A DNA stretch of 64,000 nt from Ostreococcus lucimarinus. Lineage: Eukaryota. Under the pieces are notes generated by a model, which did not search any database, was not told the DNA's origin, and saw nothing but the letters and a program-made list of their open reading frames with translations. Numbering within the stretch: position 1 is the first letter of the stretch; each line of letters begins with the position of its first letter. The stretch lies in the NCBI GenBank assembly GCA_000092065.1, contig CP000586.1. One strand, 5' to 3'. Made by a program: the position numbers and the translations under genes. Positions 3,570 to 52,969 of this stretch are shown in pieces.

Positions 3570-5681
3570 CTACCTTTTCTTCTTCTTCGTGACGCGAGAT
3601 TGCTTGCTCGCGAGCTTTGCGCGCTGCTTGGGCTTCGCACTCGAGGCGCGCGCGGTCTTTTTGCCGTTCTTCGCGTTGCCGGCGCCGCGCTCGCGAAACG
3701 CGCGCTGCTCGTCGGCGGCGCGGCGACGCTTGGCGCTCGGTGACGCCGGGGTGCCTCCGTAGCCGCGGTGGCCGTCGGAGGCCCACGCGCTAGCACCACG
3801 AGGACGTTTATTGTTACCGTTGCGCGGATCGTCGGTCCAATCGGATTTGTTCGGCGAGAAGCTGTTTTTCGCGTTCGCTTTGCGGAAATACTGATGGTTG
3901 TTCCGCCCGCTCCCCGAGGGCGAGGATTCGCGGCGGACCATAGTGTTCTGGCGAACCTTGATGAGTTGACCGCTCTTTGGGAACGCACCGAAACTGTTTC
4001 TAGGCGGTGGCGCGGCGACCTCGGAGAGTAACGAGAGCTCGCCGCTCACCGAGATGTGCTCCGCGGCGAGTCTAAACAGGTTCTGAACCTCTTTGAATCG
4101 ATACGCCGCCGCGGTAAAGCAACGCAGTCGCTCCTGCGGATCTTCTGCCATGATGTACGGCCGCGTCCCAAACGGTGGACCGGGGAGTTCCGCGGCGGAC
4201 ATCACGCCCGATTCGCGACCGGCGGCGACGGCGTTTGTTCTGTAATCAAACACAGAGCCGAATCGCCGGAGAAAACCGAGTAAGAGCTCGCCCAACAAAC
4301 CGGCTTTATTTACAGCTACCACTGAACCCGTTTGTTTCAAGTGCGAAACCACAAGCGACACGAGCAAGTAGCCCCCACACCCTCCAGTCGCGGCGTCGTT
4401 CAAGTGATGCGTGCTAAGAAGGCGCTTCAAGTAAAAGACCAATGGTTTCAACGCCGTGTACGTCTCGACTTGTTCGCGAATCCAGTACACGGCTTCGAGG
4501 CCGTTTGAAGTTCCTAAGGACAGATCCACGGCGATATATGGCGGCACAGCACTTTTCATTTTAATGATCGGAACCTTCGCCGAGGCGATGATCTCCGCTC
4601 GCGACACAGCGTTCACCTTGCGCAAGAATCGAGCCATTTTTCGCAAGTGGCCGACGATTTCGTCGCGTTCGCTTCGTGTAAACCCACCACCGCCGCCCTT
4701 GCGCGACTGCGGACCGACGCCGAGTAAAACTAAATCTAGATCGGCTCCTGCGAGCGCCAGCCCCGTGGCGCCGCTCCCGAATACGTGCAGAGAGCAATCT
4801 TTGTGATTAGCGTAATGTCGAGCGATGGCGGATTGAATGGCGTCGAAACACTGTTGTCGACGACTCGCTTCGTGCGTAGACATCTCGCTATGCTTCACGA
4901 AATCAATCACTTGCGAATGCAAAGAATCATCGCCGACGACTCGATCGCTCTCGATGTTGTTGAGCTCAGTCTCCTCGACGTTGAACGAAAAGTTATGATC
5001 GTCTTCCTCATCCGTGTATTCGTCGAATGAATCGTCGAAATGATCGTCTTCGGCATCGCTTTCATCGATCGTGTTGTCCTCGGCGCTCACGGAACCATCG
5101 CAACGCGCATCGCTCGCGCTTTCTTCGCTCGTCGCCGCACTCGCGGACGTCTCGATCCCGTTCATCTCGCGCATCGCGTCCGCCACGCCCTTGGCGAGCG
5201 TAAATTTCCTTTTAAACACCAACCGCTCCCTTTGACTCGACGGCAAGCGCTCTTCGCTCTTCGTTTCCACCACCCCTCGTCGCTGTAAATCACGCAGCGT
5301 CTCCAGAACCTCTGACTCAAAATCTACCGCCGTCCCCGTCGCCGCCTTTGTCTCCTCGTCCCAATTCGCCGCCCCCGCGCGAAGCGTCCCCACCAACGTC
5401 TGCGCGTCGCACGCCGTCGGCGCCGCTCGACTCATCGCCTCCACCACCAACTCCCGCCATCGCACGCGTCGATCCTCGTCGTCGTGCCTCTCCCTCCCGC
5501 GTCCCGTCGTCGTCGCCGCGCTCGTCGTCGCCGCGCTCCTCGTCGTCCCGCGCGCGTCGCCCGCCCCTCGCCCGCCGCGTCCGCCTCCCGCGCGCGCCGC
5601 CGTCGCCGGCGTCCCCCGCGACGTCGACGACGCGCCCCACCTCGCGGCGCGTCGCTCTTTCCTTCGCCTCGACGCGCTCAT
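3570..5681 (-). CDS. Non-canonical poly(A) polymerase / terminal nucleotidyltransferase (Cid1/Trf4/GLD2 family, PAP/25A-associated domain)
   Basis: Nucleotidyltransferase motif (HVFGSGATGLALAGADLDLVLLG) followed by a PAP-associated region; acidic central stretch and Lys/Arg-rich C-terminus. Start at 5681 is ATG, but the alternative ATG near 5435 (MSRAAPTAC...) is possible because the first ~80 codons are low-complexity G/R/A/T. Confidence 0.75.
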   Translation of the reverse strand: MSASRRRKERRAARWGASSTSRGTPATAARAGGGRGGRGAGDARGTTRSAATTSAATTTGRGRERHDDEDRRVRWRELVVEAMSRAAPTACDAQTLVGTLRAGAANWDEETKAATGTAVDFESEVLETLRDLQRRGVVETKSEERLPSSQRERLVFKRKFTLAKGVADAMREMNGIETSASAATSEESASDARCDGSVSAEDNTIDESDAEDDHFDDSFDEYTDEEDDHNFSFNVEETELNNIESDRVVGDDSLHSQVIDFVKHSEMSTHEASRRQQCFDAIQSAIARHYANHKDCSLHVFGSGATGLALAGADLDLVLLGVGPQSRKGGGGGFTRSERDEIVGHLRKMARFLRKVNAVSRAEIIASAKVPIIKMKSAVPPYIAVDLSLGTSNGLEAVYWIREQVETYTALKPLVFYLKRLLSTHHLNDAATGGCGGYLLVSLVVSHLKQTGSVVAVNKAGLLGELLLGFLRRFGSVFDYRTNAVAAGRESGVMSAAELPGPPFGTRPYIMAEDPQERLRCFTAAAYRFKEVQNLFRLAAEHISVSGELSLLSEVAAPPPRNSFGAFPKSGQLIKVRQNTMVRRESSPSGSGRNNHQYFRKANAKNSFSPNKSDWTDDPRNGNNKRPRGASAWASDGHRGYGGTPASPSAKRRRAADEQRAFRERGAGNAKNGKKTARASSAKPKQRAKLASKQSRVTKKKKR

Positions 5682-16601: not shown

Positions 16602-16638
16602 TAGTCATCGTCGATAGCCGTGTATTTGAGGACGCGCC

Positions 16639-16716
16639 GCTCCCCAGTTCACCGCGCGCGAGAGCGTTCACTCGTTCGCTCCCCAGTTCACCGCGCGCGA
16701 GAGCGTTCACTCGTTC
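16639..16716 (+). repeat. Perfect tandem duplication of a 39-nt unit (gctccccagttcaccgcgcgcgagagcgttcactcgttc x2) in the ferredoxin 5' region
   Basis: Two identical adjacent copies read directly from the sequence, about 130 bp upstream of the ferredoxin ATG. Confidence 0.75.
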
Positions 16717-16844
16717 GCGCACACGAAGCGAGTTCAAAACACTCGCACTCGCGAGATCGCTCTCACTTTACGCGCCGTCCTCGTCGCTCCGTGAACGCGT
16801 CGAAACGCCGTCGTCCACGTCACAAGTTTATCCAAAAATTAAAC

Positions 16845-21872: not shown

Positions 21873-23402
21873 CTAACGAGAGCGAATGGAAAGAATTGCT
21901 TTGGAAAGTTGCGGTATCGGCGTTTCCCTCGACTTTTTTGGAGAAGTTGAGGGTTCGTAGATATCCGCTAATGGTACACGCGTGGGCTGGTTCTCGATCG
22001 TATCGCGAATGATGGCGACGTAGCGATACATGCGATGACTGTCGAGTCGTTCAACGCGCTCCTCTGGAGAGTACTGACGAAGCGCCCAGAGGCGTTCGAA
22101 AATCGTCGGCCCTATTCGCTGCGTCGCGGTTTCGTTTTGATCTTCAAAAACCCCGGGCGATGCCGAGCTGGCATCGAATTCTTCTTGAATCGACAAGAAA
22201 GACTCTTTCGATTCGGTTGCGGCGATTAAGTCCTTCACCTCCGCTTCGAGTTCAATTTCGTTCGTTGGCATGCTAAACGCCGCAAGGAAAGACGTCCTCG
22301 CCCGCTTCGCAGCCGTGATAGGCTTGGAAAGCCCCTTGGCCACGCCTTTGGCGACGTTCGAGACTTGCCTCGTAACCTGACTCGCCTCCATCGTCGACAT
22401 CGTCGTGGTGTTCATCACGCTTTCAATCGACACACGCTGGCGCCATAGAATTCCAGCTGCACCCCACTCGCGCGGTAAGTCCGCAAACACCCCGGGTCGA
22501 TCGTTGTCGAGAACCAAGCCTTCGCCGACGTGGCAATATGGTCTGCGAACCAACGGACGCGACATCGGCAGCAAAGGGATGATGTCATCCTTTTGTACGA
22601 CGCGCAAGATATCAATTTCCTCGATAGCTTGCGCGGTCTCCTTCGGTCCGAGTTTTGGTGAGCCAAACGTGACGACGCGACGAATCTTCGTCTTCTTCTT
22701 TTGATGCAGCAACAAAGCGAGCGCGACCGCTGCGGCGCCTCCGAGCGAGTGGCCCGTGAGTTGAAGCTCGTAGCCATCCAATAGCAAAGGCTCGATCGCC
22801 TCCAAGCATCGTTGCGCAATGTTTCGGTACCCTCTGTGCATCGGCACCGGCACATCTTCCGCTCTTCCAGTCGGCGCCGTGCCCAATCGCAAGTTTTGCG
22901 CCACATTCTTGATATTCTTTGTTCCGCGAAGCGACACGGTGTGCGTACGGTTTCTATGATCCGTCGTCACGATGGCTCTCTGCTCGCACGAACTCAACTC
23001 TAACACGCGCACGTCCTCTTTACCCCTGAAAAACTCTTCAATCTCCTCTAATGGTTGCCCATTCAAGCAAGCGATCTGCGCTATTCTGTACAACTCCTCG
23101 AACGACCCCACGACTGGTATCACGCTTCCGGGTGACGTCCCCGGCGGCATCTGTATCTGCTTCAACCAACTCGGCGCGAAGCGCATCGCCTCCACCGCTC
23201 GATTTCTCAGCTCCCCCAACCGTCGCTGCGATACCCCGTTCACAGCGTCCACGTCAACGCTCGCCTCCGCGTCACTCTCAGTCGTCGCTCGCGCCGTCGA
23301 CGACGGCCGGCCGAAACGCGCTCTTCTCGCATCTTGCGCGCGTATCCCGCGTTCAATCGCCTGTTCATCCGTCGACCGCGTCGCGTCGTCAGTCATAATC
23401 AT
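21873..23402 (-). CDS. Class-3 (fungal-type) lipase / alpha-beta hydrolase
   Basis: Nucleophile elbow LTGHSLGGAAAVALALLL inside a Lipase_3-like region; track start 23453 is GTG, first ATG (MIMTDDATR) at 23402. Confidence 0.65.
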   Translation of the reverse strand: MIMTDDATRSTDEQAIERGIRAQDARRARFGRPSSTARATTESDAEASVDVDAVNGVSQRRLGELRNRAVEAMRFAPSWLKQIQMPPGTSPGSVIPVVGSFEELYRIAQIACLNGQPLEEIEEFFRGKEDVRVLELSSCEQRAIVTTDHRNRTHTVSLRGTKNIKNVAQNLRLGTAPTGRAEDVPVPMHRGYRNIAQRCLEAIEPLLLDGYELQLTGHSLGGAAAVALALLLHQKKKTKIRRVVTFGSPKLGPKETAQAIEEIDILRVVQKDDIIPLLPMSRPLVRRPYCHVGEGLVLDNDRPGVFADLPREWGAAGILWRQRVSIESVMNTTTMSTMEASQVTRQVSNVAKGVAKGLSKPITAAKRARTSFLAAFSMPTNEIELEAEVKDLIAATESKESFLSIQEEFDASSASPGVFEDQNETATQRIGPTIFERLWALRQYSPEERVERLDSHRMYRYVAIIRDTIENQPTRVPLADIYEPSTSPKKSRETPIPQLSKAILSIRSR

Positions 23403-23769
23403 CGCCGTCGTCGTGGACGGCGGATGCCGCGGTCCATCGCGCGTCGCCGACACCGCGCGCGCGAGAACACGCGACGATCAGACGTCATCGTGGCTCCAGC
23501 ACTCGACACGTTTTCGTTCGGTTCGTCGCGCGCACGTCGTGCGAACGCACCGTGAACCGAGAAACGAGCGCGCGCGTCGTCGGCGCGTGCATGGCTCGCG
23601 CCGTCGCGAGCCGCCGCCGCGCACCGCGTCTGTGTCTGAAGCTCTCGCGCGGCGGCGGTTGTGTATTCAGGAAACGAATGAAACTCGCGCGGCGTTGCAA
23701 TTGAAAAGTGCGTAAAACAAGGGCGAAAATGTGCGTAAAGCGCTAACTCGCGCGCTGACTCGTGATCGA

Positions 23770-24369: not shown

Positions 24370-24664
24370 GATCGGGTCGCGAGCTGGGATGTGACGTTCG
24401 GTTCTGCGTCGTTGCGCGCGGCGACGCCGTCGAGCGTCGTGGACGGAAACAAAGAGAGTGTCAAATCGCGCGGACAAATGTGAGTCATGCTAATCATGTG
24501 TGTATTATTACGTCGCACGACGCTCGAGGAGACGTACGTCACCTCTCGCGCGCGTACGGGCAAGAATGGAGCTACAAATGCAAGTGCGTGCGAATGCGAA
24601 ACCGCGTCGGCGAGTGCGCGATGGAAGATCGCGCGTCCAGAGGACGCGCGATTATCGGATGCAG

Positions 24665-26158
24665 TTATTGCGCCGCGCGGCGACGACGCATATCGTTCAA
24701 CTCGCTAGCCATCAAAAACGCAAGCTCGATGGCTTGGCTCGCGTTCAAGCGCGGATCACAATGGGTGAGGTAGCGCTTTTCCAAATCAGACACCGAAACG
24801 TCCATGATGCCGCCCGTGCACTCGGTGACGTTTTGCCCCGTCATCTCTAAGTGAACCCCACCAGGATAAGTACCCATCTTTTCGTGCACTTCAAAGAATG
24901 CCATAATTTCGTCGCGCACCGCCTCGAACGGACGCGTCTTGAAACCGTTATCAGTCTTGATGGTGTTCCCGTGCATGGGATCCGTAACCCACAACACGTT
25001 GAGCCCGGCGTCTTCAATGGCGGTGATGAGACGCGGAAGATGCTCGCGCAACTTGGCAGCACCCATGCGAGAGATGAGGGTGATGCGACCCGGGACGTTG
25101 TCCGGGTTCAACTTCTTCACCAAGCTCACCACACCCTCGCCGTCGCTCTTGTCGGAAATCTTGATGCCGATCGGGTTGGAAATACCGCGGAAGTATTCCA
25201 TGTGTGCGCCTTCGGGTTGGCGCGTGCGCTCACCACACCACAAGAAATGCGCGGAACAGCCGTAATGCTCCTCGGTCGTGGAGTCCAAACGCGTGAGCGA
25301 TTCTTCATAACCCAGGTGAAGAGCTTCGTGCGCCGTGAAGAAGGATGTCTCTTGCATCGACGGATGAGTTTCGTCGATGCCGCACGCCGCCATAAAGTCA
25401 ATCGCGGCGTCGACGCGCTGCGCAAGATCCTCATATTGACTGCCTCGTTCGGTGTTTTCCATAAAATCCAAATTCCAATCGCTCACGCGCGTCATCGCGG
25501 CGTACCCTCCGTTACTGAAAGCTCGCAGCAAGTTGAGCGTGGCGCACGACTGATCGTACGCCTTGACCAAACGCGAAGGGTCCGGCCGACGCGCTTCCGG
25601 GGTGAACTCACAGCTGTTGATGTTATCGCCTCTGTACGACGGCAACGAGAGCCCATCGATCGTTTCCAAGTCTTCGGAACGGGGTTTGGCGAACTGGCCA
25701 GCCATTCGTCCCAGCTTCACCACGGGCACGCCCGAGCCGTACATCAACACGACGGACATTTGCAGCAAAACCCGGTACGTATCCCGCACGTTATCCGACG
25801 TGAAATCTCTAAAACTTTCCGCACAATCACCACCGAACAAGACGAACGCGTTACCAGCCGCCGCGTTCGCGAGCTTTTCCTGCAAGTCGCGCGCTTCTCC
25901 CGCGAACACGAGCGGCGGCCGGTTGGCGATCACCTTCAGCGCCTCCTCCAGCTCAGCCTGATTTTCATAGTTCGGTTGTTGCAGCGCCTCGCGCTGTCGC
26001 CAAGACTTCGGGTTCCACTCCTTCAAATTCGCCCCCGTCGCGCTGACGTCCGCGCTCCTCGCCTTCGACTTGCTCGCCGTCGCCTGCGCCCTGCTCGCGT
26101 CGCGCGCGCCGCGCTCCGGGTTAGTCCTCGCGTTCGTCGTCGTTCGCCCTCGTCCCAT
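24665..26158 (-). CDS. 3-deoxy-D-arabino-heptulosonate-7-phosphate synthase, class II (plant/AroAII type), shikimate pathway entry enzyme
   Basis: [51 protein letters not shown]... and the rest of the class II DAHPS core through the C-terminus; track start is GTG, first ATG at 26158 gives a short basic leader. Confidence 0.85.
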
Positions 26159-26569
26159 CCGCGCGTCCCTCGCGCGCGTCGCCTCGAACGATCCACCATC
26201 CCTCCCCACCGATCCGCGCGTCTCGCGCTCGCGCGCGCGCGTCGCGCGCGTCTCGCGCCGTCGTCGCGTAACCCTCGACTCGATCGTCCGCCGTCGTCAT
26301 CCACCCGATCGCGCGCGCGCGTCGTCGTTCGCGCCGCGCCGCGCACCTCGTCACCGTCGTCACCGATCGTCGCGCGCCCGCGCGCGTCGTTCGCGCGCGC
26401 GTCGGCGTCGCCGCGCGTCGGACGCACGCCATGTCGAGCGATCGATTGTGCCGCCGCCGACGGCGCGCGCGTCCCAAGCGCGCGTGGTTCCGAATGTCCG
26501 AACTTTCCCATCGCGATCGCGTTCTGATGGCATCGCGAGGCTTACTGTACGGCACTCGCGCGTTCGACG

Positions 26570-26600
26570 TATTCTGTGTGCGCACTGTTTGCGCACACAG
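26570..26600. promoter_or_regulatory. 12-bp perfect inverted repeat ttctgtgtgcgc / gcgcacacagaa with 7-nt spacer in the DAHPS-Ycf45 divergent intergenic region
   Basis: Read directly: ttctgtgtgcgcactgtttgcgcacacagaa. Sits about 400 bp upstream of the DAHPS ATG in an otherwise CG/G-run-rich spacer. Confidence 0.4.
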
Positions 26601-27195
26601 AACGGGTGGTTTTTATGCGTCGCGCATCGGTGTGGATAGAATGTCCGGTGTGAAGGTTTGAATCGCGACGCTTCGCGCGATGGATGAAACGACGCGCGAC
26701 CGCAGAGCGACGCGCGACGCGCGGCGCGACGCGGCGACGCGCGGAGCCGCGCATAAGAATTATCGTCGACCGCGGCGCGAGGCGCGAGGCGCGCGCGACG
26801 CGGGATGACGACGATGGGACGGGGGATGACGACGACGTCGACGACGACGGCCGTTAACGGCGCGCGCGCGCGCGCGGGACGACGCGCGCGAGCGACGCGC
26901 GCGGTGACGTCGAGAGGTGCGCGCGACGCGGGATGACGGGGAGGGGAGGTGGACGCGACGGGCGGGGGGGGGGACGCGCGGCGCGGACGGAGGGGGGGAC
27001 GCGAGCGACGCGAGCGATGACATCGAAATCGAAACGGCACGATTTTTTTTGAAATGTCGCGGCGCGCGGCGCGACGGGTCGGTCGGACGCGTTCGGCGCG
27101 CGCGCGACGATCGGGGGAGGGTGGACTGACGTGTATTCGTTCGACGCGGCGCAGCGGTGGAGATCGATGACGATGGGTACGACGTCGACGATGGG

Positions 27196-28482
27196 ATGAT
27201 TTCGAGCACGGAGTTTGAAGACGACGACGAGCAAGTCACCGTGCGAGACGACTTGACGCGTTTGTACGGCGTCTTGCCCGCGGACGTTCGGGACGCGGTG
27301 AAGAATCATCCGGAACGGAAACATCTGTTGGAGGTGGTGTTGGATCTCGGTCGAGCGCCCGAGGCGAGATTTCTGGGGGAAATTGGGTCGATGTTCCTGC
27401 GCGAGGCGCCAGTGGTGGAAGCTGAGCTCGTCGCGGCGGCGAAGGCGGTGGGGGAGTTTGGTGGGGATAACCGAGCGGGCATCGAAGGCACGTTACATCG
27501 CATTTCGTGCATTCGAAACAGGCGTGGTCACATCGTCGGCATGACGTGTCGCGTTGGACGAGCTGTGACGGGGCATATCGATATGATTCGAGATATTTTA
27601 CCGAGCGGCGAGAGCGTGTTGTTTTTGGGACGTCCGGGTGTCGGAAAGACGACGGTCATCCGCGAAATGGCGCGTGTGTTGAGCGATGAGCTCAAAAAAC
27701 GCGTGGTGATCATCGACACCAGCAACGAGATCGGCGGTGATGGCGACATCCCGCACCCCGCCATCGGGGGCGCGCGGCGAATGCAAGTTCCGGATCCGTC
27801 CATGCAACACCGCGTCATGATCGAAGCCGTGGAGAATCACATGCCCGAGGTGATCATCGTCGATGAAATCGGTACCGAAGCCGAAGCGCTGGCGTGTCGA
27901 ACGATCGCCGAGCGTGGTGTTCAGCTCATTGGTACCGCGCACGGGCAGTTGCTGGAGAACTTGATCAAGAACCCGACGCTGACCGATTTGGTCGGCGGCG
28001 TCCAGACTGTCACGCTCGGCGACGACGAAGCGCGCGCGAGAGGGTGCCAAAAGTCCATCCTCGAGCGTCAAGGTCCGCCGACGTTTCCAATTTTGATCGA
28101 AATGCACGAACGCAACATGTGGGTCGCGCACAACGTCGCTGAAAGCGTCGATGAAGTGCTCAGCGGGGCGCGACCAGTCGTGCAGCTTCGCACTCGCGAT
28201 GGCGAAGGCGAAGTGACGGTGCATCGCACCGTTTACGATATGGACGTCAGTCTTGGCACTGCGAACGTGAGCCATACGCTCGGGGCCATGGGTGGCATAA
28301 TCGCCCCCACGAGTCGTCTGAACAACCGAGCAGATAGCTCGGTCGATGACCCATATGCTTGGGCCCAAACCATCGGCAACGTTCCGGACAAGGACGCTTT
28401 GGACAACGTTTACGGAGGCACGGCGTTCAAGGAAAACAAGAAGCGCGGCAAAAAGACGCGTGCGAACGCCTCCAAGCGTTGA
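27196..28482 (+). CDS. Ycf45-like P-loop ATPase with an R3H-like N-terminal region (nuclear copy of a plastid/cyanobacterial gene; SpoIIIAA-like)
   Basis: Walker A (LFLGRPGVGKTT) and Walker B (VIIVDEIGT) with the conserved ycf45 core (HGQLLENLIKNPTLTDLVGG...). The frame is open from 27157 (GTG) and the first ATG is 27196; a branch-like GGACTGACG plus CGCAG acceptor at 27126-27154 suggests a possible upstream exon that I could not place. Confidence 0.7.
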   Translation: MISSTEFEDDDEQVTVRDDLTRLYGVLPADVRDAVKNHPERKHLLEVVLDLGRAPEARFLGEIGSMFLREAPVVEAELVAAAKAVGEFGGDNRAGIEGTLHRISCIRNRRGHIVGMTCRVGRAVTGHIDMIRDILPSGESVLFLGRPGVGKTTVIREMARVLSDELKKRVVIIDTSNEIGGDGDIPHPAIGGARRMQVPDPSMQHRVMIEAVENHMPEVIIVDEIGTEAEALACRTIAERGVQLIGTAHGQLLENLIKNPTLTDLVGGVQTVTLGDDEARARGCQKSILERQGPPTFPILIEMHERNMWVAHNVAESVDEVLSGARPVVQLRTRDGEGEVTVHRTVYDMDVSLGTANVSHTLGAMGGIIAPTSRLNNRADSSVDDPYAWAQTIGNVPDKDALDNVYGGTAFKENKKRGKKTRANASKR

Positions 28483-28731
28483 TTCAGGTCAGCGCACCAC
28501 TTTCTACACTAGTACCATCAGAGTATTACCGCACATTACGCTATCATCGCCCGCGACTTACTCATTGCGGGTTTGTATCATATTCAAGATCTCGAGCCGT
28601 CGACATCGACGGCTTCCGCTGTTGTACTTGGAGGCTGTACTATCACGCGGCGCGACACATGCAATGTTATAAAATACGAGATATGTCGTTAAGTTATTAC
28701 ACGTACGAGCGGCCGCCGCTCCATTACTAAA

Positions 28732-41694: not shown

Positions 41695-41750
41695 TAGCTC
41701 AGTAGCTCTAACGAGAACAGAGGCAATAGCTCAGTAGCTCTAACGAGAAC
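41695..41750 (+). repeat. Two copies of tagctcagtagctctaacgagaac (period 32 nt) immediately after the TOP3 stop, in its 3' UTR; TGTAA follows at about 41757
   Basis: Read directly; copy 1 at about 41695-41718, copy 2 at about 41727-41750. Confidence 0.6.
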
Positions 41751-51197: not shown

Positions 51198-51992
51198 TCA
51201 TTCTACCGAGAAAGAGTCGTCTTGAGAGAGTTCGGTATCGGTGGGGGTAGGATCGGCGACTGGCGTCGGTGCCGGATCCTTCTTGGGGTAAGCTCGGGGC
51301 TGGTTCGACGATTGCACTTTACTCGTGATATCGGTCAAAGCACCGATCGTGCTGTCGAAGATGGACGGGATATCAATGCCCGTGCCGCTTTCGATGTTTT
51401 CGAGAGTGTTCTTGAACTTTTCTCGGCTCTCCTCGAACGCCAAGTAGTTGTAGGTGAAGTAGAGCGTGTAAGCGATACCAATGGTTTCCAGCGCGACATC
51501 CGCGATACCCGGCAAGATGGCCACGGATAACAAAAAGGAGCCGGCGATGATGGCGTAGAAGCCAAGATCGGCTGTTTCCTTGAGCGACTTTGAGCTCGCC
51601 GAGCGTCGCACCGGGCGTTGAGCCGGCTTGCGCGCGAAAGGTTTCGGTTTCGGTTTGCTCGCTACCATTGGTTTGCGTCGCACGATCGGCTTCTTCGCCG
51701 CGATCGGCTTCTTCGCCGCGATCGGCTTCTTCGCCGCGATCGGCTTCTTCGCCGCGATCGGCTTCTTCGCCGCGAACGACGGCTTCTTCGCCGCGACGGG
51801 CTTCTTGACGAGCGGTTTCGCCTTGGCCGCGAACAGTGGCTTCTTCGTCGCGACGGGTTTCTTCGCGACGACCTTCGGCTTAGGCTTCGCCTTGGGCTTA
51901 GGCTTCGCCTTGGGCTTAGGTTTCGCCGCAACCTTCTTGGGCAACACGAACGTCGGCTTCTTCTTCTTCTGCGTGCCCGATCCCGCGTCCAT
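51198..51992 (-). CDS. CURT1: CURT1-like (CAAD-domain) thylakoid curvature protein with a long Lys/Pro/Ala-rich repetitive N-terminal extension
   Basis: C-terminal FYAIIAGSFLLSVAILPGIADVALETIGIAYTLYFTYNYLAFEESREKFKNTLENIES matches CURT1A-D (VPLLPKVMELVGLGYTGWFVYRYLLFKSSRKELAEDIESLKKKI). The N-terminal ~170 aa is (AAKKPI)n and KPKPKAKPK repeats. First ATG 51992. Confidence 0.7.
   Translation of the reverse strand: MDAGSGTQKKKKPTFVLPKKVAAKPKPKAKPKPKAKPKPKVVAKKPVATKKPLFAAKAKPLVKKPVAAKKPSFAAKKPIAAKKPIAAKKPIAAKKPIAAKKPIVRRKPMVASKPKPKPFARKPAQRPVRRSASSKSLKETADLGFYAIIAGSFLLSVAILPGIADVALETIGIAYTLYFTYNYLAFEESREKFKNTLENIESGTGIDIPSIFDSTIGALTDITSKVQSSNQPRAYPKKDPAPTPVADPTPTDTELSQDDSFSVE
51683..51790 (-). 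repeat. Perfect 18-nt tandem array (cgatcggcttcttcgccg on plus strand, encoding KKPIAA on minus strand), about 5 identical copies flanked by degenerate copies to about 51940
   Basis: Read directly from the plus strand; period 18 preserves the reading frame of the CURT1-like gene. Confidence 0.8.
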
Positions 51993-52854: not shown

Positions 52855-52969
52855 GTGCGCGAGCGCGCGGACCCCTACGAAAGAGAAAACCCCTAGTAGG
52901 GGACGACGACGACGGAGAATCGCGAACGAATGACTGACGACGCGAGCGACCGGACGACCGAACGCGCAG
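52855..52969 (+). other. Myb gene intron 1 (115 nt, GTGCGC...CGCAG)
   Basis: Donor, ATGACTGACGACG branch and CAG acceptor at 52967-52969; phase 0 on both sides. Confidence 0.45.

What the first reader, a model, noticed from the sequence alone, without database searches (positions are those of the whole stretch)
26210..27195. Unusually long, structured divergent spacer between DAHP synthase and Ycf45-like ATPase: perfect 12-bp dyad, G-runs, duplicated GCGCGCGACGCGGGATGACG, and a probable hidden 5' exon
Most intergenic spacers here are under 300 bp; this one is nearly 1 kb. It contains four features. First, a perfect inverted repeat ttctgtgtgcgc-N7-gcgcacacagaa at 26570-26600. Second, two copies of gcgcgcgacgcgggatgacg about 125 bp apart (about 26793 and 26918). 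Third, G9/G7 runs (cgggcggggggggggacgcgcggcgcggacggagggggggacg, about 26965-27010), which are capable of G-quadruplex formation. Fourth, directly before the Ycf45 frame, GGACTGACG followed 25 nt later by CGCAG, which is the same branch/acceptor architecture as the bona fide introns. The Ycf45 frame is open 39 nt upstream of its first ATG (GTG at 27157). A short upstream exon carrying the start codon and transit peptide probably exists inside this spacer. A plastid-derived ATPase would otherwise lack a targeting peptide.
Basis: partly seen in the sequence, partly recalled or inferred. Interest (0 to 1): 0.5.

Follow-up and report, generated by a model that had tools for sequence, protein, structure and literature searches.

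The report
Hidden first exons, not a spacer
The apparent 1-kb gap between two Ostreococcus lucimarinus genes is mostly unannotated first exons and ordinary first introns of those genes, which corrects the public gene models but is otherwise ordinary, leaving a short promoter with one unexplained palindrome.

Summary
All four sequence features exist, with small coordinate offsets. The window is Ostreococcus lucimarinus CCE9901. Ten independent RNA-derived contigs join 26916 directly to 27155, removing a 238-nt intron (GTGCGCG ... GACTGACG ... CAG). Two contigs carry template-switch-oligo remnants that place the cap site at 26704. Four end in non-templated poly(A) after 28692. The Ycf45-like CDS is 26805-26916 + 27155-28482 (479 aa), with a transit-peptide-like N-terminus.

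The DAHP synthase very probably has a mirror-image structure: exon 1 at 26432-26347 and an intron at 26346-26091. This rests on comparison with other Ostreococcus lineages, not on transcripts.

The real ATG-to-ATG spacer is therefore about 372 bp. The first 20-mer copy spans the start codon and the second spans the 5' splice site. Only the first is invariant in wild genomes. The G10/G7 runs are intronic, polymorphic and do not form a canonical G4 motif.

The dyad is really 13+5+13 nt (26572-26602), about 100 nt upstream of the cap site. It is retained imperfectly in a diverged haplotype and absent in other species. Its function is unknown. Overall this is an ordinary gene-model correction of low interest.

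The parts
24665..26090 (-). DAHP synthase (class II) exon 2, CDS including the stop codon
   Evidence: PF01474, 664 bits. Nucleotide conservation with other species ends at 26083/84. It is 97-100% identical in the diverged haplotypes L035 and L036.
26091..26346 (-). DAHP synthase intron 1 (inferred, 256 nt): 5'ss GTGCGCG at 26346, branch GACTAACC at 26126-26119, acceptor CAG at 26093-26091. It contains the RefSeq-annotated start ATG at 26158.
   Evidence: The in-frame phase-2 model is reproduced in L001, L003, L007 and L035. The GACTAACC branch motif is shared by the window, L035, L001 and L007, where it cannot be coding. No transcript evidence was obtained.
26347..26432 (-). DAHP synthase exon 1 CDS (inferred): MACVRRAATPTRARTTRAGARRSVTTVT(R)
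   Evidence: No variable sites in 10 wild genomes. L035 encodes MACARRGPAPTSARARATSARTRRSATVVTR with a 6-nt in-frame indel.
26433..26703 (.). Divergent promoter core plus the DAHPS 5'UTR, whose extent is unknown
   Evidence: It holds 32 of the 50 variable positions seen among wild genomes and is only 46-50% alignable to haplotype L035.
26492..26503 (+). Conserved island GAATGTCCGAAC, possibly a DAHPS TSS or 5'UTR element. A second copy, GAATGTCCGG, lies at 26639-26648.
   Evidence: It is identical in L035 and L036 and invariant in the population. Its function is not tested.
26572..26602 (.). Perfect dyad 13+5+13: TTCTGTGTGCGCA CTGTT TGCGCACACAGAA
   Evidence: One SNP in 10 wild genomes. Weaker hairpins are kept in L035 and L036. 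It is absent from the L001, L003 and L007 spacers.
26704..26804 (+). Ycf45-like gene 5'UTR, with the cap site at 26704 and no upstream ATG
   Evidence: L017 begins with the template-switch-oligo remnant GTGGTATCAACGCAGAGTACGGG followed by window 26704. L016 begins with GGG followed by 26704.
26791..26810 (+). 20-mer copy 1, which spans the start codon at 26805
   Evidence: It is invariant in wild genomes.
26805..26916 (+). Ycf45-like exon 1 CDS: MTTMGRGMTTTSTTTAVNGARARAGRRARATRAVTSR(A)
   Evidence: The contiguous product P0145 is present on 15 RNA-sized contigs. The junction is exact in 10 of 10 fetched contigs. No variable sites.
26917..27154 (+). Ycf45-like intron 1 (238 nt, phase 1): 5'ss GTGCGCG, branch GACTGACG at 27124-27131, acceptor CAG at 27152-27154. 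It contains 20-mer copy 2 (26919-26938), G10 (26964-26973) and G7 (26992-26998).
   Evidence: It is absent from all 10 transcript contigs. Its signals match the published O. lucimarinus consensus (PMC2483917).
27155..28482 (+). Ycf45/SpoIIIAA-like P-loop ATPase exon 2 CDS. The 3'UTR continues to the poly(A) site at 28692.
   Evidence: PF19568, 53 bits against a cutoff of 27. Non-templated poly(A) follows 28692 in L016, L019, L020 and L022.

Best explanation
The interval is the shared 5' region of two head-to-head nuclear genes of Ostreococcus lucimarinus that encode plastid-type proteins. It is not a 1-kb spacer.

Shown: the Ycf45-like mRNA starts at 26704. Translation begins at ATG 26805 (or at the in-frame ATG 26814). 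A 112-nt coding exon 1 gives a basic, Ser/Thr/Ala/Arg-rich, acid-free presequence. A 238-nt G-rich intron with the species' standard signals (GTGCGCG, GACTGACG, CAG) is removed. The reading frame continues at 27155.

Inferred: the DAHP synthase has a mirror-image structure on the minus strand. ATG 26432 opens an 86-nt exon 1 that encodes a transit-peptide-like sequence. A 256-nt intron (GTGCGCG ... GACTAACC ... CAG) follows, and exon 2 starts at 26090. The RefSeq start at 26158 then lies inside that intron.

What remains is a spacer of about 372 bp between the two ATGs. It is the fast-evolving bidirectional promoter. The 31-nt dyad sits in its centre, about 100 nt upstream of the Ycf45 cap site. 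The dyad is either a lineage-specific promoter element or a neutral quasi-palindrome. The 20-mer duplication and the G runs are by-products of the G/CG-rich composition of 5'UTR and intron sequence on the sense strand.
For: Organism and public models: XP_001418270.1 (Ycf45-like, 'partial', 335 aa) and XP_001418517.1 (DAHPS, 497 aa, starting at 26158) are both O. lucimarinus CCE9901.

Ycf45 splicing:
- P0145 (476 aa) reads MGRGMTTTSTTTAVNGARARAGRRARATRAVTSRAVEIDDDGY... It lies on 15 contigs, all under 5 kb.
- The 10 fetched contigs align to 26xxx-26916 and then 27153/55 onward at 99-100% identity.
- All 10 carry the identical junction GTCGAGAG|CGGTGGAG.
- TSO remnants mark 26704 as the cap site, and poly(A) tails follow 28692.
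- The published consensus for non-chromosome-2 introns of this species is GTGCGTG / GACTGACG, with ACTGAC in 87% of confirmed introns (PMC2483917).
- A phase-1 intron of 238-304 nt sits at the same position in five other lineages. L003 and L007 have no in-frame ATG without it.

DAHPS splicing:
- Phase-2 models fit L001, L003, L007 and L035. Exon 1 always ends in GAG|GT.
- The less common branch GACTAACC is shared by the window, L035, L001 and L007.
- L001 has no in-frame ATG at all upstream of the conserved core. L007 has a stop codon right after the branch motif.
- In haplotype L034/L035 the counterpart of the annotated ATG is out of frame.

Polymorphism in 10 wild genomes (variable sites):
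- both exon 1 CDS: 0
- DAHPS intron: 3
- Ycf45 intron: 9
- Ycf45 5'UTR: 6
- core 26433-26703: 32
Against: No transcript spanning the predicted DAHPS junction was found. Exact look-ups of eight candidate spliced products failed. A junction scan of JGI contigs gave 0 hits. A peptide-based locus search and a protein search returned nothing useful.

The annotated single-exon DAHPS ORF from 26158 is open and also looks mildly transit-peptide-like.

The frameshift that disables that ORF in L034/L035 is a single extra base. Those assemblies look like long-read assemblies, in which DAHPS is split into several ORFs, so the extra base could be an error.

Two RNA contigs extend upstream of 26704, to 26608 and 26443. 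Minor upstream starts or read-through across the dyad therefore exist.

Plastid targeting of either protein was not tested.
Confidence: 0.85

Rival explanations
1. DAHP synthase is a single-exon gene that starts at ATG 26158, as in RefSeq XP_001418517.1. Only the Ycf45 side then hides an exon. The non-coding stretch between the start codons is 646 bp, and 26159-26462 is 5'UTR or promoter.
For: The ORF from 26158 is open and its product (497 aa) is the annotated protein. Its N-terminus [26 protein letters not shown] lacks acidic residues until position 15. A similar ATG-led peptide ([21 protein letters not shown]) exists in haplotype L035, though it is 1 nt out of frame. No spliced DAHPS product was found in the public collections.
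Against: Relatives cannot use such a model. L001 has no in-frame ATG, and in L007 a stop codon follows the conserved GACTAACC motif. A complete set of splice signals is conserved, together with an ATG-led, acid-free exon 1. The interval 26291-26462 has no polymorphism, whereas the true spacer has 32 variable sites.
Confidence: 0.18
2. The dyad at 26572-26602 is a functional element of the bidirectional promoter. It could be a palindromic site for a dimeric factor, with two TGCGCAC cores 11 bp apart. It could also be a DNA or RNA hairpin that serves both genes.
For: It is central in the spacer and about 100 nt upstream of the Ycf45 cap site. It is the only non-CG long perfect inverted repeat in 64 kb. 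It carries 1 SNP against about 0.12 variable sites per bp in the surrounding spacer. Its alignment to L035 is 74% identical against 46-50% for the flanks. The loop and core CACTGTTTGCGC are identical in L035 and L036, and both still fold into hairpins. The L035 hairpin is no stronger than shuffled sequence, with z = -0.8.
Against: There is no counterpart in the orthologous spacers of L001, L003 or L007, and no shared k-mers of 8 nt or more. Neither the half-site nor the dyad recurs in the window above chance. The one population SNP breaks a pair without compensation. No factor is known.
Confidence: 0.35
3. The dyad is a neutral quasi-palindrome. It was made perfect by a template-switch (intra-strand copying) mutation in a CG-rich ancestral sequence of the GCGCGC type, and it has no function.
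For: The related haplotypes carry imperfect, more CG-rich versions (TTGCGCGCTCA...TGCGCGCGCA). The window version differs by paired changes on both arms, which is what a single templated event produces (established mechanism, from my own knowledge). CG-type inverted repeats are common in this genome's non-coding DNA: 12 of the 14 repeats.
Against: Its relative conservation inside a fast-evolving spacer is not expected for a neutral sequence. Linkage and the short length make this argument weak.
Confidence: 0.4
4. The G10/G7 runs form a regulatory G-quadruplex.
For: G10 is the longest G run in the window, and the intron is G-rich on the sense strand, with G/(G+C) = 0.67.
Against: No motif of four G3+ tracts with loops of 12 nt or less exists at 26930-27000. 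G10 is interrupted (26972 G>C) in 7 of 10 wild genomes. The G7 run is not conserved in L035/L036 (GAGGGGGGGA aligns to GCGAGGACGA), although a long G run persists at the G10 position there. The runs lie in a spliced-out intron.
Confidence: 0.04

Closest known systems
Canonical non-chromosome-2 spliceosomal introns of Ostreococcus lucimarinus (Irimia & Roy 2008, PMC2483917)
   Same: The 5' splice site is GTGCGCG against the consensus GTGCGTG. The extended branch GACTGACG matches exactly. The branch A lies 25 nt from the AG. The intron is GT-AG and is removed in mRNA. Similar introns occur elsewhere in the window.
   Different: Nothing essential differs for the Ycf45 intron. The inferred DAHPS intron uses the rarer ACTAAC branch, the 'actrac' class that adds about 3% beyond ACTGAC in the published table.
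Head-to-head gene pairs with a short bidirectional promoter in compact genomes
   Same: The two start codons diverge about 372 bp apart. The Ycf45 cap site is mapped at 26704. The spacer between the genes is the least constrained sequence in the interval.
   Different: The DAHPS cap site is not mapped, co-regulation has not been shown, and no shared cis-element is conserved across species.
Ycf45 / SpoIIIAA-like P-loop ATPases. These are plastid-encoded ycf45 in red-lineage algae and nuclear genes in the green lineage. Arabidopsis SPD1 is, from my memory only, a member.
   Same: PF19568 is matched above its cutoff. Full-length green-lineage homologues from transcripts carry N-terminal extensions of 100-130 aa (P0011, P0039, P0041).
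   Different: The Ostreococcus presequence is much shorter, about 38 aa. Function and localisation were not tested here. The SPD1 link was not verified in the papers I could read.
Canonical G-quadruplex motif (G3+N1-7)x4
   Same: The sense strand is G-rich and has G10 and G7 runs.
   Different: The motif definition is not met, even with loops up to 12 nt.

Membership tests
O. lucimarinus canonical spliceosomal intron (Ycf45 intron 26917-27154) | The sequence is absent from mature mRNA and has GT...AG ends | tested here: met
   All 10 RNA contigs join 26916 to 27155. Four of them are polyadenylated.
O. lucimarinus canonical spliceosomal intron (Ycf45 intron 26917-27154) | Species consensus: 5'ss GTGCGTG and branch GACTGACG close to the 3'ss | tested here: met
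   The 5'ss is GTGCGCG (6 of 7). GACTGACG matches exactly at 27124-27131. The branch A is 25 nt from the AG. The consensus is from PMC2483917.
O. lucimarinus canonical spliceosomal intron (DAHPS intron 26346-26091) | The sequence is absent from mature mRNA | tested here: inconclusive
   No spliced or unspliced transcript could be retrieved. L033 is collinear with the genome but is probably a metagenomic fragment that breaks at a SNP.
O. lucimarinus canonical spliceosomal intron (DAHPS intron 26346-26091) | Splice signals, phase and position are conserved in relatives | tested here: met
   The 5'ss is GTGCGCG, the branch GACTAACC and the acceptor CAG. A phase-2 model fits L001, L003, L007 and L035. 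The branch motif is shared by four lineages.
Chloroplast transit peptide | N-terminal presequence rich in Ser/Thr/Ala/Arg and lacking acidic residues | tested here: met
   Ycf45 residues 1-38 contain 0 Asp/Glu, 8 Arg and 13 Ser+Thr, and are followed by an acidic stretch. DAHPS residues 1-29 also contain 0 Asp/Glu.
Chloroplast transit peptide | Directs import into the plastid and is cleaved | not testable with these tools
   No targeting predictor or experiment was available.
Ycf45/SpoIIIAA-like ATPase | Match to the family profile above the curated cutoff | tested here: met
   PF19568: 53.3 bits against a cutoff of 27.
Bidirectional promoter | Two divergent transcription starts less than 1 kb apart | tested here: inconclusive
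   The Ycf45 cap site at 26704 is shown. The DAHPS start is not mapped. Its ATG is at 26432 (inferred) or 26158 (annotated).
Canonical G-quadruplex motif | Four tracts of at least 3 G separated by loops of 1-7 nt (relaxed: 1-12 nt) | tested here: not met
   A regex scan finds no hit at 26930-27000 under either definition.
Recurrent palindromic promoter motif | The same dyad or half-site occurs in other promoters or in orthologous promoters | tested here: not met
   The window shows only chance-level near-matches. The dyad is absent from L001, L003 and L007. Only diverged haplotypes of the same or a sister lineage keep a weaker version. The whole genome could not be scanned.

The most novel reading that the evidence does not exclude
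The 31-nt dyad is a lineage-specific palindromic or hairpin control element in the middle of a bidirectional promoter. It would co-ordinate expression of the first shikimate-pathway enzyme with a plastid Ycf45-type ATPase in O. lucimarinus.
Probability: 0.15. Interest if true: 0.35.

Novelty: new member of a known kind. Interest (0 to 1): 0.18.

Why it matters
The result corrects two public gene models in a reference picoalga. The Ycf45-like gene is annotated only as a partial 335-aa fragment, and it now has a full mRNA definition: cap site, 479-aa CDS, intron and poly(A) site. DAHP synthase probably starts 274 bp further upstream than annotated, so its annotated N-terminus would be intronic. 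Both changes affect predictions of plastid targeting. The case also shows that unusually long gaps between ORFs in Ostreococcus can flag a missed short first exon followed by a GC-rich first intron. Beyond that, the biology is ordinary.

Tried and rejected
Searches for DAHPS transcript evidence, all without a useful result:
- Exact look-up of the predicted 503-aa spliced product and of seven other candidate DAHPS products: the GTG-26209 ORF and six spliced variants with alternative starts, donors or acceptors. None is in the collection.
- A junction pattern scan of JGI contigs gave 0 hits.
- A peptide-based locus search matched 600 patterns but confirmed none, because it was swamped by GC-rich low complexity.
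- Two protein searches were uninformative. One returned only proteins of 149-417 aa, many of them partial, and the other returned 3 hits with no spliced form.
- Contig L033 is collinear with the genome but begins 2 nt from a polymorphic site, so it is probably a metagenomic fragment.

Other checks on the interval:
- Rfam found no family in 26000-27300.
- There are no tRNAs in the window.
- Bacterial promoter and terminator scans found nothing. I considered the hairpin plus T5 as a Pol III or intrinsic-type terminator. I dropped this because the T run is not kept in L035/L036.
- A viral-collection scan for the dyad gave 0 hits.
- Orthologous spacers share no k-mers of 8 nt or more.
- Micromonas-type 'introner' repeats were considered. 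The only similarity between these introns and other window regions is about 68-70% and low-complexity, so I did not pursue this.
- I first read the L035 alignment as loss of the annotated DAHPS ATG. On re-inspection the ATG is shifted by 6 nt and is 1 nt out of frame, so I downgraded that argument.
- L036 is a mosaic of the two haplotypes and has 1-nt indels, so it was not used for reading-frame arguments.

Full report
OBSERVATION.
- The dyad lies at 26572-26602 and is longer than described: 13-nt arms around a 5-nt loop. It folds at -17.5 kcal/mol as DNA, z = -4.7.
- The 20-mer GCGCGCGACGCGGGATGACG occurs at 26791-26810 and 26919-26938.
- The G runs are G10 (26964-26973) and G7 (26992-26998).
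- GGACTGACG is at 27123-27131 and CGCAG at 27150-27154. The Ycf45 frame is open from 27130, with GTG at 27157 and ATG at 27196.
- The flanking ORFs are a class II DAHP synthase (PF01474, minus strand) and a SpoIIIAA/Ycf45-like P-loop ATPase (PF19568, plus strand).

ORGANISM AND PUBLIC MODELS. Cluster look-ups identify the window as Ostreococcus lucimarinus CCE9901. The Ycf45-like gene is annotated only as 'predicted protein, partial' (XP_001418270.1, 335 aa). DAHP synthase is annotated as XP_001418517.1, 497 aa, starting at ATG 26158.

YCF45 SIDE: SHOWN. The 90%-identity cluster of the ORF product contains a 476-aa member, P0145. Its N-terminus is MGRGMTTTSTTTAVNGARARAGRRARATRAVTSRAVEIDDDGY. 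That is exactly the product I had predicted from the sequence: ATG 26805/26814, donor GTGCGC at 26917 and acceptor CAG at 27154, in frame.

P0145 is encoded contiguously on 15 contigs, all shorter than 5 kb. The ten I fetched come from different sequencing runs. Each aligns to the window as 26xxx-26916 and then 27153/55 onward. All carry the identical junction GTCGAGAG|CGGTGGAG.

L017 begins with GTGGTATCAACGCAGAGTACGGG, which I recognise as a SMART template-switch-oligo remnant (my own knowledge). It is followed by window 26704. L016 begins with non-templated GGG followed by 26704. Four contigs end in non-templated poly(A) after 28692.

The mRNA is therefore 26704-26916 + 27155-28692. The 5'UTR is 101 nt with no upstream ATG. 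The CDS encodes 479 aa. Two contigs reach further upstream, to 26608 and 26443, so minor longer 5' forms exist.

The intron matches the published signals of O. lucimarinus introns outside chromosome 2. Those are 5'ss GTGCGTG and branch GACTGACG, with ACTGAC in 87% of EST-confirmed introns (PMC2483917).

Syntenic loci from five other Ostreococcus lineages (L001, L002, L003, L007/8, L011) all have a phase-1 intron of 238-304 nt at the same place, with a ...GCGCAG acceptor and a GACTGAC-type branch. L003 and L007 have no usable in-frame ATG without it.

Exon 1 encodes 38 residues with no Asp/Glu, 8 Arg and 13 Ser+Thr, followed by a strongly acidic stretch. This composition is transit-peptide-like. 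Targeting itself was not tested.

DAHP SYNTHASE SIDE: INFERRED. On the minus strand, ATG 26432 opens MACVRRAATPTRARTTRAGARRSVTTVT. A donor GTGCGCG follows at 26346. A branch GACTAACC lies at 26126-26119 and an acceptor CAG at 26093-26091. Splicing joins in frame to [16 protein letters not shown]....

Support for this model:
- Nucleotide conservation with other species stops at 26083/84, beside the acceptor.
- The same phase-2 model fits L001, L003, L007 and haplotype L035. Exon 1 always ends in GAG|GT.
- The less common branch GACTAACC(C/T)G(G/A)AG is shared by the window, L035, L001 and L007.
- In L001 there is no in-frame ATG upstream of the conserved core. In L007 a stop codon follows the branch motif. 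The motif is therefore conserved as non-coding sequence.
- Exon 1 in L035 differs by a 6-nt in-frame indel and keeps MAC.RR...T.VTR.
- Among 10 wild genomic contigs there is no variable site in either exon 1.

Against this model:
- I could not find any transcript for it.
- The annotated ORF from 26158 is open.
- Its counterpart in L034/L035 is out of frame by only one base, in assemblies that may contain indel errors.

I put the two-exon model at about 0.8.

WHAT IS LEFT OF THE SPACER. With both first exons, the ATG-to-ATG distance is 372 bp (26433-26804).

Variable positions in wild genomes, by feature:
- core 26433-26703: 32
- Ycf45 5'UTR: 6
- Ycf45 intron: 9
- DAHPS intron: 3
- coding parts: 0

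Identity to haplotype L035, by feature:
- DAHPS exon 2: 97%
- Ycf45 exon 1: 82%
- DAHPS exon 1: 76%
- Ycf45 5'UTR: 77%
- introns: 68-71%
- promoter core: 46-50%
- dyad: 74%

THE FOUR FEATURES IN THAT LIGHT.
- The 20-mer. Copy 1 spans the start codon and is invariant. Copy 2 begins 2 nt into the intron, so its GCGCG forms positions +3 to +7 of the 5' splice site. It carries three SNPs in wild genomes and is disrupted by a 6-nt insertion in L035/L036. About ten other 20-mers recur in the window. I read the pair as compositional or a small local duplication without joint function.
- The G runs. They lie in the intron. G10 is interrupted in 7 of 10 wild genomes. No four-tract G4 motif exists there, even with 12-nt loops.
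- The branch and acceptor. This is the genuine 3' splice region.
- The dyad. This remains unexplained. It sits 102-132 nt upstream of the cap site. It is the only non-CG long perfect inverted repeat in the window and has one uncompensated SNP in one wild genome. It persists as a weaker hairpin around an identical CACTGTTTGCGC core in L035 and L036. There is no counterpart in more distant species. It does not recur in the window, matches no Rfam family and has no viral match. A lineage-specific promoter element and a neutral quasi-palindrome perfected by template switching are about equally likely.

VERDICT. The long structured spacer is mostly two ordinary first exons and two ordinary first introns. 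This is a useful annotation correction. It adds a new member to a well-described intron class and is of low general interest. The only open item is the dyad.

Noticed in passing
window 23361-23624 (-): The neighbouring Lipase_3 gene seems to have the same layout. A short ATG-led first exon (MHAPTTRALVSRFT) is followed by a GTGCGT donor, a GACTGACG branch and a CAG acceptor at 23361.
   Followed up: partly
window 52855-52969 (+), 52269-52059 (-), 44440-44345 (-), 42297-42145 (-): Four more candidate introns carry the GTGCG(C/T)G donor and the exact GACTGACG branch. They were not checked against transcripts.
   Followed up: no
window 24628-24652: A perfect 11-bp inverted repeat, ATCGCGCGTCC-AGA-GGACGCGCGAT, lies 13-37 nt downstream of the DAHP synthase stop codon. 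It is probably in the 3'UTR.
   Followed up: no
window 26492-26503 and 26639-26648: GAATGTCCGAAC is identical in the diverged haplotypes and invariant in the population. A second copy, GAATGTCCGG, lies on the other side of the dyad. It could mark the DAHPS transcription start or a promoter element.
   Followed up: partly
window 51683-51775; 16638-16718; 41695-41750: Three sets of tandem or near-tandem repeats: an 18-nt unit CGATCGGCTTCTTCGCCG in about 5 copies, a 42-nt sequence repeated with a 39-nt period, and a 24-nt repeat TAGCTCAGTAGCTCTAACGAGAAC with a 32-nt period.
   Followed up: no
L003 about 5200-5320: The orthologous spacer of another Ostreococcus lineage holds about five tandem copies of a 23-25-nt unit, CACCACACGCGGGTCTTTTTTGA. 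It has no counterpart in the window.
   Followed up: no
L002 1-125: The contig begins with a roughly 50-nt perfect inverted repeat of its own sequence. This is most likely an assembly artefact at the contig end.
   Followed up: no
L036 versus window 25990-27270: L036 is identical to the window up to about 26290. Beyond that it follows the diverged L035 haplotype, with a window-like patch at 26600-26640. It is either a natural recombinant between co-occurring haplotypes or a chimeric metagenome assembly.
   Followed up: partly
window 26427 (-): A second consensus-like donor, GTGCGTC, sits 5 nt after the DAHPS ATG at 26432. It would also splice in frame to 26090 and give a protein without a presequence, MAAQATASK.... 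The donor is also present in L035.
   Followed up: no
L013 and L014: Two Ycf45 RNA contigs run on to window 30268 and 29705, across the convergent downstream gene. This suggests overlapping 3' ends or read-through.
   Followed up: no
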